Below are positions 13,901-19,900 of a stretch of 64,000 nucleotides of DNA, one piece after another; position 1 is the first letter of the stretch; each line of letters opens with the position of its first letter. The position numbers are program-made. Origin of the DNA: Escherichia coli (GTDB taxonomy: Bacteria; Pseudomonadota; Gammaproteobacteria; Enterobacterales; Enterobacteriaceae). The stretch lies in the NCBI RefSeq assembly GCF_016026235.1, contig NZ_CP065613.1. One strand, 5' to 3'.

Positions 13901-16900
13901 CAGCCCTGAAGCCAGTTTTCAGGATACTCATGGCTACGTCCGGTCCGGCAGTCGAAGCACACAACTGACGGTCCCGTCCTTTCTCCACTGACGTATGCCC
14001 ACAGATAACCGGAGCAGGATTTACCGCCTTTCTTCGTGTTCAGGATCTTCAGGGTAGTCTCATCTGCATGCACCACCGGACGGTTTATCAACTCGCGATG
14101 GAGTAACGCCGCCAGGGGAGATAATGCGGCACCCGCCGCGCCAACCATGTCAGCCATCGAACTGACGGGCAGCCCGACATCTGAACGGGCAAAGACCTGT
14201 TGCTGGCGATACAGAGGCAGGTGGTCACCGTATTTATTGATGCTCACCTGTGCGATGACTGATGGCTCAACGGCACTTTTCGGGAGGATATGTGCCGGCA
14301 TTTTACCGCTGAACACCTTCTGGCAACAGGGACAACTGTATTGCGGACGGACATAACGGTTCACCACAAAGTGAGCGGGAATATACTCCAGCTTTTCACT
14401 CACCGCATCGCGGATATAGTGCAGCGGCTCGTCACATTCAGGGCAATGGTCAGTGTCCGGCTGGATAATTTTTTCCACCCGTGGAAGATGAACCGGTAAG
14501 GGTTTGCGTATCGGGCGTGAACGGGACGCTTTTTCATCTTCTTCAGGGGATTGCGGGAGCAGTTTATCCAGATGTGCGGTAAGCGCGGCGATATCGGCAT
14601 CAACATCCTCTTCGAACAGGGAGCGTTGCATACCAGCCAGCGTTTCACATTTTTTTCCGAAGCGCTGTTGACGAACCAGTTTCAGCATTTCTTCCAGAAG
14701 CTGGATGCGCCGGCTTTTCTCCAGTAATTCCCGCTCTTTTTCGGCATTCTCCGACATGACTTCTTGTACCATGGCAAGTGCCATAGCACGCAGTTTTTCG
14801 ATGTCATTCGTGGTGTTGAGAGCGGAGATATCCATACAGGGGAGTATACCACTCCAGATACGGATATTCATTATTTTTCACTGAGTTAGCAGTGTATTTT
14901 GCGTGTTTTCAGGGCGCAGTTCAGGTTCATTCTGCCAGACCCATTTCGTCAGGTCATGTCCCTTAACCTGCTGCCAGTCAACACCGGCAATCAGCCAGTT
15001 AAACTCGTCGGGAGTGAGGTGCCAGGCAGCGTCATTTGCACGTGGCCAGCGGAAGCTGCCTTTGTGCAGACGGCGGGTACACAACCACACCCCGTGTTTA
15101 TCCCACCGGAGAACTTTGATACGCGAACGGGCTTTGTTAACAAAGACGAAGGCGGCTCCCTCATGCCATGTCGACCGGAGTTCATCCTGTATATACTGCG
15201 TCAGTGAGTCGATGCCCCGGCGCATGTCAACAGGTTTAATTGCGATGAAGACATTATCAGGACTGAGCATATTTGAGTGCCCTGAAGACATCGGTAAGTT
15301 GTGACGGCTGACAGCACATCCGTACTCCACCGGGAAGGAAGAGCGTGACTGGCTCATTCGTGACGGGCTGTGGTACATCAGCATGCAGTGGTGGCGCAAT
15401 ATGAACGGGAAGAACGGTCGGTTCATTTGCCCGGCGTTCAGCTTTTGCGACATCCTGCGGCCATTCGCGAAGTGATGTGAAGGGAATATCGTTGAGTTCA
15501 CAGTATTGCTGACGTGTAAGACCACTGGCGCGCCAGGCAGCAACGTGCTGCCTTTTCTGTTCAATGGTCCATCGGGGTTTTGACATCGATTATCTCCGGT
15601 AAGTTGGTGAATGGATGTCGGTAATACTAACTGACCGAAGATCCCTGTGAAGATGACTTCCCCGTAACGACACGTTTACTGACGTTACTGCTGGTGCTGA
15701 TTCTGGTTACCGTTTCAGGCGTCAGTGTATTTGTACTGTTGCAGTAGGTTACAGGGGAGGGATTATCAGGAATCGGCGGGGCAGAGCGACCCGCTGCGTT
15801 TGTTGTGCCAGACAGTAACGCACCGGCTCCCTGCAAAATGGTACCTGAATCAATCACAGTCAGGTATTCCGCCAATCCGTGATCGAATCGAGCGGAATAC
15901 TCAGCCCCGACAAATACGAGTCCCCTTCAGAAGATACAGGCCGGTAATGCCTGAACGCCTGCCCCTCTGTACACCATTCCCTTTTGATTTCGAATTCTTT
16001 GTTGCCGTTATGTTCCCGATCTTCCGGTGCACAGATAACACCGGAGTCATCGTAGCGCGGATTCAAGATTCAGGTGACATATTTCCAGACGGAAGCCGGC
16101 ACGCGATCGTAAAGTTTGTTCATTGTCAGTTCTGCCAGCCGGTGATCGACCGCAGAGTTAAAAGCTTCCAGCTCCGCAGGGGTAAGTTTATAACGTGTGT
16201 GGGAAATCACTTTTTCCAGCGTCTCCCGGGATGAACAACGACGGAACTGCTCTGGTTTTAACTTCCATTCGTCTCTCGTTACTTTATGCTGTAATCAACG
16301 TGATACTGCCAGCATACCGCACCAGACTGACATTCTGGTACCCTCCCCAAACTCATTACTCCCGTGCCACCACTTAACCGGTCTCTCAGCAATATCGCCT
16401 TAACGCTACGTTTAGTTATCCGACACCGGATGTCCGATGCCATTGCGACAACCTGAAGGTAACCAGCCAGTTAGCTGAGATGTTAAGCTGCTGGCTGCAT
16501 ACACCTTGCCAAATCTAATCGCTGTTATCTTAACCAATTTCCAGGATACAAGGGGGCGATTACTGAGAATACTCTCAGACTGTCACTCACCAGATCGGAT
16601 ACGTTTACCGCTCAGGCGGATGCTTAATGCACTCTGTTCAGGTGCATTGCAGGTACGTTTTATGTACGCAGGTTATACGCCAGTTATCAGGGATAACCCT
16701 GTGAGTACAACGCAATCTGTTGCTACTGGGTAGACTGGTCTGCTGATCACACTCACAGATTTATTTCACATATATGAACTCATGTGTTTGAGCTCTCTTA
16801 TATATTTATAATACCAATCAGACAGTCTTATCCCACCAGTGATACCTGTCGCCTGCCCACAGGTCACAGGCTGATGCACCACAACCGCCTTCAAAAACAA

Positions 16901-19900
16901 CTCTGCAATTATCAGAACGCCAGTTTTCCCCTTATCTCACGAAAGTCCTCCCTCCTTTATCACGTGCGCGTGCGGAAGCATCGTTTCGCAACAATCACCC
17001 GACATACCGGTACGGCTCAGCCACCGCAATCCCCCCGTTTATCTCCTGACGGTCACATTCCCGATTATTTTTTACGTTTTTCCCCGGTTGTTATGCCGGG
17101 GAAGGTGGTGCGTTGTTTTCATCACCAACGCCGGTTGAGATTAACAACATCCGGAGGAACATTTTCATGAATACCCCAGTTTCACTGATGGATGACCAGA
17201 TGGTCGACATGTCGTTTATCACTCAACTGACCGGCCTGACCGATAAATGGTTTTACAAGCTCATCAAGGATGGTGCCTTTCCTGCCCCCATCAAACTGGG
17301 CCGTAGCTCCCGATGGCTGAAAAGTGAAGTGGAAGCCTGGTTGCAGGCACGTATTACACAGTCCCGTCCGTAATTCCTGACCGTTATCCGTTCAACCGCA
17401 GCAAGGGCATGATCCGGCCCCCGGAGGCATTTTGCTGCGCGCTAAAGGAGAGAATATTATGCAAAAACTTGAAAACCGGTGTGAGCTGCTGCTCATCCAG
17501 CATCAGAAATGGATGACAAGCGTGACGAGGCTTATCGTCGCTCATGGAATGGGGTCTCCGCATCTTCATGGTTATCACCGCCTGACCCTGGCCCACTTTT
17601 TTCTGCCAGAAAAAGGCACCATCATCTCAGTGGCACCACAGGGACTCTATCAGGTCGTCAACCCGGGAACACCACCGTTCATTCCTGCCATTCAGGAAGG
17701 GTTAATGACCAGCATTCAGACCCATGAAATCATGCTGCTTACACATTTTAATCTGGGCGGCGTTTTACTCAGTGAGCTACATCGTCTGGGTGAAAACCGG
17801 CTGGCAAACAGGCTGAACAGCCTGCTCCGGCGTTTCGACGATCGTGATCTCTACCACACGCTGATATGGCTGTGCTGGTATGATCTGATGTGTGCCCACT
17901 CCATGCAGCCCTGGACTGAAGAGTTAAAGCATAAATCACATGCAGAGCTTGAAAACTGGGCTGTGGCGCGCAAACGGGAAAAGAGCGAGCTGGAACTGAT
18001 GATTGACGAGTACCTGTTATACGCCTGTTGATTCATAACACTCCCGGGCCTCCGCACACTTACTTTTCCTCCGTCACCCTCATGCAGAAGCGGGGGGTGA
18101 CGGGCATACTGCGATACCACCACTGAATAATCCGTCTCAGCAACAGGGAACATTATAAGCCAAAGGATTGCTCATGCCATCTTATCAGTTTCTGGCTGTA
18201 GCACGCATTCAGTTCAGGCAGCGTGATATTGTTTATTTCGGAAAGCAGGACATAGGTGGTTTTTCCTTCCTGCACGACAGAGAGCCTGAGTTGAGATGCA
18301 AGAATGTTCAGCAGGACGTTCAGCTTTTTCCTGTTCCTGAACCGGCCCGGGCCACACTGGAGAATATAATTTTTCCTGACACGGGGCGGGCATTCTCCGC
18401 GGCACTCCTCAATGAGCCAGTCGAGCAGCTCCCAGGCGTCCTGCAGCTGCAGTTCAGATTCATCAGGTAACGCAAATAATTTTTTATATTCATCTGTGTA
18501 CCACGAACTTATTACGACAGCAGACGTCATGATATCGGCAGAGATTTTCCCTTCACCCTGACTGAAATACTGCAATAACGCAGCAATTCTCGCAATGTTT
18601 TCTGTTTTTTTTGAAACATGCCCCCGAAACTGGCTTAAGGGTCCGGAAGGAGACAAATCCTGCTCCAGAACATTATAGTGATCAATAAATATTTTTTGCG
18701 CTTCAGGAGAAAAATGCAGACAATAACGTTCATCCTTACTGGATTTTTCAATACTGCCTCTGGCCAGTTCCATTAATCGTTCATGAAATGCCGTTAATGA
18801 TCCTCCCGGGGTCACAGCTCCGTTAATAAAGCGTTTCCCCTGCGTGGTGGCAGGTTTACTGATTAGACAACGGGCAAGAAAACCACTGTCCCTGGCAACA
18901 GAACCTTTTCGCTCCATATATCGGTCAAAAAGACCGGGTTGTACCATGAGGGATAATGTCATTCTGGCATTTTCAATCATCTGTTCGGGTTCATTCTTTC
19001 TGTCCACCGACAATACGGAGCCATCCCACATTTTGTTAATAAAAGGCAGCTCAGACAGGGTATACCCATCAAATATTATACCGGCTTCATCAGACATGAT
19101 ACCCACTGAACGCCACTGACCACAAAGCTGATCTTTAATTGCTGCTGTCGTGGCATCATTAAAAATGAATTTATATCTTACAGGTTTTTCCCCTCTGTTT
19201 TTCTGAAGCGCTTCCAGTTGTCTGAGCGTTTCTGATTCATCCGCGCCTTTGCGGAGTTCTTTATTCAGTTTTGACAACAATGCTTTTTTCTGCGCCTTTA
19301 AAAGCTCTTCCTTATTTTTCCATGTCGTCAGTTCATTTTTGTGTCTGGAATATAACAGCATCTCCTGCTGGTACAGGGGCTCCATTAATAATTTGTCCAC
19401 TGCGGTTTTTCGTTCTCCGGACTCAGCAAGCGTCAGTAAGAAAAGAGAAACCGGCCCCCGTAGTGTATTCAGTCTGCAGACATCAATCAGATTCTGGCAG
19501 ACAAGTGAAACAGCGCCCAGGGCAGATGCTGCCACAAGCCCCAGGGGAGCCTGCGTGATTTGCTGAGCTTCAATAACGGCATCACGAATGAGTGGAGGCA
19601 GCGAACTCAGGGGAAACTCATCAGGATACTGAAAGTATGGCATAATGACCTCACAACACACAGAACATAAAGTACCGCAACTATTGCTACTAATAGCAAA
19701 AATAGCAGCAGAATCAATACAGGATAAAAATTTCTGTCGATTTTCAGATTAAATAATAACCATTCGGTATTTTGTCGCTAAAGAATGTTAGAATGAATCT
19801 GTGCGTCTACGGGCGCTCTCCGGAGCACACATGTTGATTAATTTTCACACAACAACGTGCCAGCAAAAAGCATCATCCAGGGTATTGCAGGTACGGGTTT

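What the first reader, a model, noticed from the sequence alone, without database searches (positions are those of the whole stretch)
15600..17160. Gene-poor 1.5-kb stretch with a decayed minus-strand coding remnant
Between the IS66 element and alpA no ORF in the track is convincing. The minus strand carries protein-like frames without a start codon: 16072..16269 reads ...[51 protein letters not shown], and immediately upstream in another frame 16270..16446 reads MASDIRCRITKRSVKAILLRDRLSGGTGVMSLGRVPECQSGAVCWQYHVDYSIK. This looks like one gene broken by a frameshift, possibly part of the alpA-associated island backbone.
Basis: seen in the sequence. Interest (0 to 1): 0.3.

Follow-up and report, generated by a model that had tools for sequence, protein, structure and literature searches.

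The report
Frameshifted hha2 pseudogene in E. coli island
The stretch holds a dead copy of hha2, a small island-borne partner of the H-NS gene silencer, inactivated by a 14-base deletion and a lost start codon; this is ordinary island decay that public annotation already flags.

Summary
Window 15600-17160 is the decayed head of the flu (Ag43) module of an E. coli genomic island. The left flank carries aerobactin iuc genes and the right flank carries Ag43, the yee module, kps and gsp.

- **What the first frame is.** The minus-strand frame 16073-16294 is an Hha/YmoA-family gene (Pfam PF05321, E=2.6e-27). It is the positional orthologue of hha2 (EC042_4516) of EAEC strain 042 and matches it at 59 of 60 residues after the lesion.
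- **How it was broken.** The native ATG (16268-16266) and codons MEVKT survive. A 14-nt deletion at 16250|16249 then shifts the frame, so the ATG now gives only a 26-aa peptide. The one upstream in-frame start, a TTG that PGAP uses to call a 74-aa Hha in ST131 strain EC958, is TTA here.
- **How common it is.** The deletion allele fully covers the test query in 1265 of 5426 complete E. coli genomes, and 626 carry the identical 76-mer. It has picked up further lesions in other lineages.
- **The rest of the stretch.** It consists of an IS66-family end with an 8-bp target duplication, the 3' stub of a small gene split by that IS, a mosaic spacer, and a 0.9-kb divergent intergenic region.
- **One item found in passing.** The intergenic region contains a conserved alpA leader with a hairpin that sequesters the Shine-Dalgarno (SD) ribosome-binding site.

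Verdict: real, ordinary, already known.

The parts
15600..15673 (-). Right end of an IS66-family element. The whole element is 12910-15673, with terminal inverted repeats at 12916-12936 and 15647-15667.
   Evidence: Boundaries come from comparison with the uninterrupted locus L001. Inverted repeats. The tnpA, tnpB and tnpC ORFs are on the minus strand.
15674..15681 (.). 8-bp target-site duplication GTTTACTG. The other copy is at 12902-12909.
   Evidence: L001 carries the sequence once (6001-6008).
15682..15747 (+). 3' stub (the transmembrane-helix part, TLLLVLILVTVSGVSVFVLLQ*) of a 64-aa (65-codon) small CxxC...CxxC gene split by the IS. The 5' part is at 12781-12909.
   Evidence: It equals WP_032144956.1 in L001 5877-6074 and in EC958. 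The reconstruction follows. Only sub-threshold zinc-ribbon Pfam hits were found.
15748..16069 (.). Mosaic non-coding spacer downstream of hha2. It differs from other island variants by many indels that are not multiples of three, and it lacks 10 nt relative to L001.
   Evidence: ORFs here have no Pfam match. A short block encoding NKEFEIKREWCTE is shared with a PGAP 'hypothetical protein' of strain 042, but the N-terminal parts are not in a common frame.
16070..16268 (-). hha2-type pseudogene. The native ATG is at 16268-16266 and MEVKT runs to 16254. The 14-nt deletion junction is at 16250|16249. The Hha frame runs 16249-16070, with its stop at 16072-16070. The ATG frame now ends after 26 aa, at the TAA at 16190-16188.
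   Evidence: PGAP annotates the same 180 nt as 'hha, pseudogene, missing N-terminus' in L001.
16292..16294 (-). TTA codon where relatives have an in-frame TTG. In EC958, L006 and L007 that TTG is taken as the start of an annotated 74-aa Hha.
   Evidence: The window differs from the EC958 CDS by 2 nt in 225, one of which is TTG>TTA.
16269..16391 (-). Conserved hha2 5' leader and presumed promoter region, nearly identical between otherwise about 90%-identical alleles.
   Evidence: No significant RNA fold (z -0.9) and no Rfam match.
16279..16443 (-).
   Evidence: No Pfam match. Stop codons in L006 and L002 and no start in strain 042.
16391..16571 (.). 181-bp segment absent from the strain 042 and L002 island variants, flanked by the direct repeat CTCTCAG (16384-16390 and 16572-16578).
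   Evidence: It is single-copy per genome and present in 833 genomes, so it is not a dispersed repeat.
16801..17166 (+). Conserved non-coding block upstream of alpA. It begins at a TATAAT (16807-16812). It contains a long hairpin that pairs GUUUUUCC (17076-17083) with the alpA Shine-Dalgarno sequence GGAGGAAC (17153-17160).
   Evidence: Conserved at 83-100% identity in more than 3400 genomes. Alignment A5. Folds.
17167..17373 (+). AlpA-family helix-turn-helix gene (68 aa), intact. It marks the right border of the finding.
   Evidence: Pfam Phage_AlpA E=5.4e-9. PGAP annotation.

Best explanation
The coding remnant is a pseudogene of hha2. The intact gene, as in EAEC strain 042, encodes a 70-aa Hha/YmoA-family protein. 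By established knowledge of that family, such proteins bind the N-terminal domain of H-NS and strengthen silencing of horizontally acquired genes. Hha2 itself has been reported to modulate one Ag43 determinant.

In this window a 14-nt deletion after codon 5 puts the native ATG and its Shine-Dalgarno sequence out of frame with the remaining 59 Hha codons. Ribosomes starting at the ATG would make a 26-aa nonsense peptide (inferred). A second hit, TTG to TTA, removed the only upstream in-frame start. The locus therefore most likely makes no Hha protein and is evolving neutrally.

The surrounding 'gene-poor' DNA is ordinary island debris plus regulatory DNA. It comprises the end of a strain-specific IS66-family insertion, the stub of the small gene that insertion split, a mosaic spacer, and the divergent hha2-alpA control region.
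For: Identity and orthology:
- Pfam HHA E=2.6e-27.
- 59 of 60 residues are identical to Hha2 of strain 042 (WP_000453331).
- Sequence matches to solved Hha and YmoA structures.
- Identical synteny with EC042_4516, and the same architecture around hha3.

The lesions:
- DNA alignments show ATGGAAGTTAAAACC retained, then 14 nt missing relative to three intact 70-aa alleles.
- TTA replaces TTG.
- PGAP flags the same 180 nt as a pseudogene in a 99%-identical genome.

Not a sequencing error:
- The junction 76-mer is fully covered in 1265 of 5426 complete genomes, and 626 carry it identically.

Neutral decay in other carriers of the deletion:
- ATG>ATA in L020, L024, L036 and L037.
- Extra 3-12-nt deletions in L024, L036 and L037.
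- The TTG is variously TTG, TTA or CCG.
- Lineage-specific changes are rich in non-synonymous substitutions, for example window versus L006 with 1 synonymous and 3 non-synonymous changes.

Function of the intact gene and its linkage to flu/yeeR: PMC4864382 and PMC6480617.
Against: - No expression data exist for this strain.
- The remaining Hha frame is still perfectly open. It differs from another deletion allele (L020) by 8 synonymous and 0 non-synonymous changes. That pattern could reflect continuing selection rather than recombination with intact copies.
- Internal CTG (16219) and GTG (16210) codons could start 49-aa or 46-aa products that retain Pfam HHA positions 16-57. PGAP annotates such 49-aa proteins in some genomes.
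- The published hha3 of strain 042 is itself a 58-aa form with a replaced N-terminus, and it was reported to affect ag43 expression.
Confidence: 0.9

Rival explanations
1. The locus still makes a functional N-terminally remodelled Hha. Possible routes are internal CTG or GTG initiation (49 or 46 aa), or rare +1 ribosomal slippage on the A-AAA-C run after MEVK (16259-16255), which would rejoin the Hha frame as [11 protein letters not shown]...
For: - The Hha frame is intact for 59 codons.
- The window differs from L020 by 8 synonymous and 0 non-synonymous changes.
- The 46-aa product keeps Pfam HHA positions 16-57 (E=3e-20).
- hha3 of strain 042, with a replaced N-terminus (58 aa), was reported to be active.
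- Four A's at the shift site would allow tRNA-Lys to re-pair. This is read directly from the sequence and the mechanism is inference.
Against: - No Shine-Dalgarno sequence sits at a suitable distance from the GTG. The nearest GGGAG ends 12 nt upstream.
- A product from an internal start would lack the region aligned with helix 1 and part of helix 2 of Hha (alignment, plus general knowledge of the fold).
- Other deletion-allele lineages have lost the ATG, lost the TTG, and gained further frameshifts. That is not expected if the product were selected.
- No stimulatory element for frameshifting is evident.
Confidence: 0.06
2. One reading: frames 16072-16269 and 16270-16446 are two halves of one longer gene broken by a frameshift between them.
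For: The two open frames abut on the same strand.
Against: - Intact orthologues are 70 aa and start at the ATG at 16268. Nothing upstream is coding in them.
- The upstream ORF has no family match.
- It carries stops, or lacks a start, in close relatives.
- Its first 50 nt lie in a segment absent from other island variants.
Confidence: 0.01
3. The 14-nt gap is an assembly or sequencing artefact, and the gene is actually intact.
For: None specific. Short indels can be artefacts in some assemblies.
Against: - The same junction occurs in 1265 complete genomes from many laboratories and sequencing platforms.
- It occurs in alleles that differ by up to about 8% in that segment.
- A 14-nt loss in non-repetitive sequence is not a typical homopolymer error.
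Confidence: 0.01

Closest known systems
hha2 (EC042_4516, WP_000453331.1) of enteroaggregative E. coli 042
   Same: - It occupies the same position, between the Gp2/YfjJ-like gene and the divergent alpA, upstream of YfjI, GTPase and Ag43.
- 59 of 60 residues are identical after the lesion.
- The 5' leader is the same.
   Different: - The window copy has a 14-nt deletion after codon 5, and TTA replaces the upstream TTG, so no full-length ORF remains.
- An extra 181-bp segment sits in the leader.
- A different indel pattern lies downstream.
74-aa 'Hha' of ST131 strain EC958 (WP_023142689.1) and of L006/L007 (P0002)
   Same: It carries the same 14-nt deletion allele. Only 2 nt differ in 225.
   Different: EC958 keeps the TTG that PGAP uses as a start. 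Its first 15 residues are translated from former leader sequence. In the window that codon is TTA, so PGAP-style annotation calls the locus a pseudogene.
hha3 (EC042_4796, WP_001344112.1, 58 aa) of E. coli 042
   Same: It is the same family, with the same island architecture, including the alpA-like gene and Ag43.
   Different: - In hha3 the N-terminal region is replaced by unrelated sequence, and there is a 1-nt deletion (the L014/L015 type).
- It has a GTG start.
- It was reported to be active.
Core-genome Hha (with TomB) and YdgT/Cnu; YmoA of Yersinia
   Same: Same Pfam family. Phmmer with the intact strain 042 Hha2 sequence matches the solved structures 1JW2 (also 2MW2), 4ICG, 2K5S and 2JQT.
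   Different: - This copy is island-borne rather than core.
- No tomB-like partner was found among the upstream ORFs tested.
- It is inactivated.
Plasmid- and island-borne Hha of Salmonella (P0026) and Kluyvera (P0044)
   Same: 66-74% identical proteins of 67-69 aa.
   Different: They sit in different contexts: plasmid-type transfer, exclusion and Hok genes in Salmonella, and an autotransporter island in Kluyvera. Their flanks are not homologous to the window.

Membership tests
Hha/YmoA family (Pfam PF05321) | Significant match to the HHA domain over most of its length | tested here: met
   E=2.6e-27, 95.3 bits against a cutoff of 25, covering profile positions 3-57 of 57.
Hha/YmoA family (Pfam PF05321) | Complete single-domain ORF of about 67-72 aa with a start codon and ribosome-binding site | tested here: not met
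   The native ATG is out of frame because of the 14-nt deletion, and the upstream in-frame codon is TTA. The locus is therefore filed as a pseudogene of the family, not as a functional member.
Hha/YmoA family (Pfam PF05321) | Binding to the H-NS N-terminal domain and co-repression | not testable with these tools
   The conserved core motif [14 protein letters not shown] is retained. Binding itself can only be shown experimentally.
hha2 orthologue group (EC042_4516 type) | Synteny (Gp2/YfjJ-like gene, small Zn-ribbon gene, hha2, divergent alpA, YfjI, GTPase, Ag43) and high identity | tested here: met
   Identity is 59 of 60 aa.
TomB-Hha type pair | A tomB/ybaJ-like gene immediately upstream of, and co-oriented with, hha | tested here: not met
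   The main upstream minus-strand ORF tested (16279-16443) has no Pfam match. The ORF at 16412-16537 was not scanned. The upstream DNA is a non-coding leader plus a variable segment.
IS66-family insertion sequence (element bordering the finding) | 8-bp target duplication, terminal inverted repeats, and tnpA-tnpB-tnpC | tested here: met
   Target duplication GTTTACTG. 21-nt inverted repeats, 81% complementary. tnpA-, tnpB- and tnpC-like ORFs are present, but tnpC is split over several frames.
Known RNA families (Rfam 15) | Covariance-model match anywhere in 15000-18000 | tested here: not met
   No match with E<=1.

The most novel reading that the evidence does not exclude
The widespread 14-nt-deletion allele is not simply dead. 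It might be translated at a low level, through internal initiation or +1 slippage on the A-run, into an Hha variant lacking helix 1 that still modulates H-NS. Alternatively, its loss might itself have been selected, relieving Hha2-dependent silencing of Ag43 and island genes in extraintestinal pathogenic E. coli (ExPEC) lineages. Either reading would explain why the deletion allele (1265 genomes) is seen more often than the intact junction (691 genomes).
Probability: 0.07. Interest if true: 0.35.

Novelty: already known. Interest (0 to 1): 0.1.

Why it matters
The finding matters little in itself. It is a correctly recognisable pseudogene of a published island-borne regulator, and NCBI's pipeline already labels it.

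Two practical points follow.

- **Surveys may overcount hha2.** PCR or BLASTN surveys that use hha2 or hha3 as virulence markers (PMC4864382 used 90% identity and 80% coverage) may score alleles like this one as positive. About 93% of the gene length is retained here. Frameshifted alleles also appear to be more common than intact ones among complete genomes (1265 versus 691).
- **Annotation is inconsistent.** The same deletion allele is called an intact 74-aa Hha in EC958 because of a fortuitous TTG. It is called a pseudogene in strains such as DA33135 (and would be here), and a 49-aa protein elsewhere.

Tried and rejected
- **Rfam.** An E-value scan of 15000-18000 found nothing.
- **tomB-like partner upstream of hha.** No family match was found for the upstream ORFs tested.
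- **The second ORF as coding.** Rejected, because it is not conserved.
- **The 181-bp extra segment (16391-16571) as a MITE or dispersed repeat.** Rejected. It is single-copy per genome and tied to this island variant.
- **Structured RNA in the hha2 leader.** z = -0.9, not supported.
- **Structured RNA over the whole 366-nt alpA leader.** z = -1.7, and the RNAalifold covariation term is only -2.16. Only the hairpin next to the Shine-Dalgarno sequence stands out.
- **PGAP 'hypothetical protein' on the minus strand between hha and alpA** (WP_000840364 and WP_001224230 in L014 and L015). Homologous sequences differ by 1-, 2- and 11-nt indels, so it is probably not coding.
- **Simple sigma-70 and terminator scans.** The counts are no better than shuffled sequence.
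- **K-12 CP4-57 alpA.** It has no homologous leader and sits 43 bp after yfjH.
- **tRNA scan of the window.** None found, so the attachment site is outside the window.
- **Salmonella and Kluyvera Hha contexts.** The flanks are not homologous.
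Full report
**Context**

The window is E. coli DNA. Region 15674-21000 is 98.9% identical to the chromosome of strain DA33135 (NZ_CP029576). The left part of the window (1-12909) matches aerobactin iuc genes. The right part continues through alpA, YfjI, GTPase, Ag43, IrmA, the yee module (CbtA/YeeU and others), and then the kps capsule and gsp genes. This is the modular layout described for the pheV genomic island of extraintestinal pathogenic E. coli (ExPEC; PMC11537424). The sequence type of the source strain was not determined. No tRNA gene lies in the window.

**Checking the observation**

Both quoted translations exist on the minus strand.

The first frame is open from 16294 to the stop at 16072-16070. 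It begins right after an in-frame TGA (16297-16295) with TTA, so it has no start codon. Its only internal GTG is at 16210, which gives the 46-aa ORF listed. It is a strong match to the Hha family: PF05321, E=2.6e-27, profile positions 3-57 of 57.

The second frame is the ORF 16279-16443.
- It has no Pfam match.
- In the 97%-identical locus L006 it carries a stop at codon 3.
- In L002 it carries an internal stop, and in strain 042 it has no start codon.
- Its 5' end lies in a segment that is absent from other island variants.

It is a chance ORF.

**What the remnant is**

Protein searches found intact relatives of two kinds:
- 70-aa proteins starting MEVKTKEDWLYQFRRCSS..., in large clusters.
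- 74-aa proteins starting [22 protein letters not shown]...

The contigs that encode them have the same neighbourhood as the window. The order is a YfjI (DUF3987) gene, a 190-aa gene, alpA on the opposite strand, hha, then a YagK/YfjJ ('inovirus Gp2') gene and zinc-ribbon genes.

In EAEC strain 042 the gene at this position is EC042_4516, the published hha2. It is 70 aa, WP_000453331, at L017 8506-8718. Primers and identity were taken from PMC4864382. After the lesion the window frame matches Hha2 at 59 of 60 residues.

DNA alignments show what happened.
- **The start survives.** The window keeps the native ATG (16268-16266), its upstream GAGAG, and the codons MEVKT.
- **Fourteen bases are missing.** The intact alleles read ACC AAA GAA GAC TGG CTG TAT CAG. 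The window reads ACC AGA G|CAG, with 14 nt missing at 16250|16249.
- **The consequence.** The ATG frame now ends after 26 aa (MEVKTRAVPSLFIPGDAGKSDFPHTL*). The Hha frame (16249-16070) is exactly the 180 nt that PGAP labels 'hha, pseudogene, missing N-terminus' in DA33135.

**The second hit**

An upstream TTG happens to be in frame with the shifted Hha codons. PGAP uses it in ST131 strain EC958 to annotate a 74-aa 'Hha' (WP_023142689), and the same applies in L006 and L007. The window differs from the EC958 CDS by two bases in 225. One is a synonymous change and the other is TTG to TTA.

The TTG is also present in intact alleles, where it lies in the leader and is followed by in-frame stops. 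The 74-aa form is therefore a by-product of the deletion, and its first 15 residues come from former leader sequence. There is no obvious Shine-Dalgarno (SD) sequence before the TTG, which is read directly from the sequence. The native SD still serves the out-of-frame ATG.

**Population picture**

A 76-nt query across the junction is fully covered in 1265 of 5426 complete genomes, and 626 carry it identically. The intact strain 042-type junction is fully covered in 691 genomes. The lesion is therefore real, old and common.

Other carriers of the deletion have gone on decaying.
- ATG has become ATA in L020, L024, L036 and L037.
- Extra deletions of 3-12 nt occur in L024, L036 and L037.
- The TTG is variously TTG, TTA or CCG.

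Codon counts over the 60 retained codons gave the following.

| Comparison | Synonymous | Non-synonymous |
|---|---|---|
| Two intact alleles (042 vs L002) | 12 | 3 |
| Window vs L006 | 1 | 3 |
| L034 vs L035 | 9 | 8 |
| L006 vs L034 | 5 | 7 |
| Window vs L020 | 8 | 0 |

The middle three rows fit relaxed constraint. I attribute the last row to polymorphism inherited from functional ancestors and shuffled by recombination. This module is reported to be recombination-rich in ST131. It is nonetheless the main piece of evidence that keeps the 'still functional' rival alive.

**How the intact gene works and what is lost**

This part rests on established knowledge and on the cited papers, not on tests done here. 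Hha-family proteins bind the H-NS N-terminal domain and enhance silencing of horizontally acquired DNA. Solved relatives are 1JW2 (also 2MW2), 4ICG, 2K5S and 2JQT. Hha2 and Hha3 were reported to modulate one of the three ag43 loci of strain 042, and to be linked to the flu-yeeR cluster, whose genes are derepressed in hha-null and hns mutants (PMC4864382 and PMC6480617).

In the window the deleted codons (KEDWLY) align with the start of the first helix region of Hha (alignment). Any product from the internal CTG or GTG would lack that region and part of the next helix.

The published hha3 of strain 042 is itself a 58-aa GTG-start form with a replaced N-terminus. Activity of truncated forms therefore cannot be excluded outright. 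I give the 'still functional' reading about 6%.

**The rest of the 1.5 kb**

- **15600-15673: IS end.** This is the end of an IS66-family element spanning 12910-15673. Its borders are fixed by comparison with uninterrupted loci and by the 8-bp duplication GTTTACTG. No complete genome among the best matches carries this insertion, because every top hit starts at query base 75.
- **15682-15747: gene stub.** The IS splits a 64-aa (65-codon) CxxC...CxxC plus transmembrane-helix gene (WP_032144956-like). Its 3' stub lies here.
- **15748-16069: mosaic spacer.** It is full of indels that are not multiples of three.
- **16269-17166: divergent hha2-alpA intergenic region.** It has three parts.
  - A conserved hha2 leader at 16269-16391.
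  - A 181-bp variant-specific segment flanked by CTCTCAG. It is single-copy and not a repeat family.
  - A block at 16801-17166 conserved at 83-100% upstream of alpA in more than 3400 genomes.
- **Hypothetical proteins called there.** The PGAP 'hypothetical proteins' sometimes placed on the minus strand of this region are not frame-conserved.

**Side observation: the alpA leader**

Within the conserved block, a long imperfect hairpin pairs GUUUUUCC (17076-17083) with the alpA SD sequence GGAGGAAC (17153-17160). The alpA ATG is at 17167. The minimum free energy is -33 kcal/mol and z is about -2.2.

The same architecture folds in the diverged E. coli variants L014 and L025. AlpA homologues of 73-81% identity from viral contigs have unrelated leaders. 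In four of them (L026-L029) the SD sequence is also buried in a stable hairpin, with z from -2.1 to -5.6. This does not hold in L030 or L032.

Inside E. coli the stem columns are nearly invariant, so there is no true covariation. This suggests translational control of alpA but does not prove it.

**Comparison with known systems and verdict**

The remnant works like nothing at present. It is a member of the Hha family and of the hha2 orthologue group by sequence and by synteny. It fails the 'complete ORF' criterion and is filed as a pseudogene.

It is already known. The gene family, this paralogue, its island context and even this allele's pseudogene status are in the literature or in RefSeq annotation.

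Interest is low. The points worth keeping are the inconsistent annotation of one and the same deletion allele, the implication for hha2 marker surveys, and the alpA leader hairpin.

Noticed in passing
window 17076-17160 (+), upstream of alpA (ATG at 17167): A long hairpin pairs GUUUUUCC with the alpA Shine-Dalgarno (SD) sequence GGAGGAAC (-33 kcal/mol, z about -2.2). Diverged E. coli variants fold the same way. Four of six unalignable AlpA-homologue leaders from viral contigs (L026-L029) also bury their SD sequence in a hairpin. There is no Rfam match and no real covariation within E. coli. This may be translational control of alpA.
   Followed up: partly
window 16801-17166: A non-coding block of about 365 bp upstream of alpA is conserved at 83-100% in more than 3400 of 5426 genomes. 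It begins at a TATAAT (16807-16812) and contains an invariant motif AACTCTGCAATTATCAGAACG. A TTTTTTACG motif about 95 nt before the ATG is shared with distant homologues. PGAP sometimes places a minus-strand 'hypothetical protein' here (WP_000840364), but it is not frame-conserved. K-12 CP4-57 alpA lacks this leader.
   Followed up: partly
window 12910-15673: An IS66-family element with the 8-bp duplication GTTTACTG is inserted into a 64-aa (65-codon) small zinc-ribbon/transmembrane gene (12781-12909 plus 15682-15747). Its tnpC is split over at least three frames (13753-14871, 13547-13846 and 13272-13733), so the IS is probably defective. The insertion was not seen in the best-matching complete genomes.
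   Followed up: partly
L040 7151-7375 (EC958), L020 374-523, L035 582-731, compared with window 16070-16294: One and the same 14-nt-deletion allele is annotated three ways in RefSeq: as an intact 74-aa Hha (TTG start, EC958), as 49-aa Hha/YmoA proteins, and as a pseudogene. The annotation is inconsistent. The 74-aa form has an N-terminus translated from former leader sequence.
   Followed up: yes
L038 13134-13310 (E. coli 042 hha3, EC042_4796); L014 and L015: The published hha3 is a 58-aa GTG-start protein. Its N-terminal region is replaced by unrelated sequence and it carries a 1-nt deletion relative to hha2. PGAP calls the equivalent locus a pseudogene in other genomes (L014, L015).
   Followed up: partly
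window 16391-16571: A 181-bp segment flanked by the 7-bp direct repeat CTCTCAG is absent from the strain 042 and L002 island variants. It is single-copy per genome and present in 833 genomes. A 68-nt part (16493-16560) recurs at 88% identity in other genomes, with a weaker (81%) match on some plasmids. Its origin is unknown.
   Followed up: partly
window 15860-16066 (-) and L017 8757-8945: A short block encoding NKEFEIKREWCTE downstream of hha2 is conserved in frame between a window ORF and a 62-aa 'hypothetical protein' of strain 042 (WP_044168572, which has a lipoprotein-like N-terminus). The N-terminal part is deleted in the window and is frame-inconsistent between 042 and L002.
   Followed up: partly
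window 15832-15903 versus 20495-20559: A 72-nt inverted match at 76% identity links the spacer downstream of hha2 to a region beyond yfjI. Its significance is unknown.
   Followed up: no
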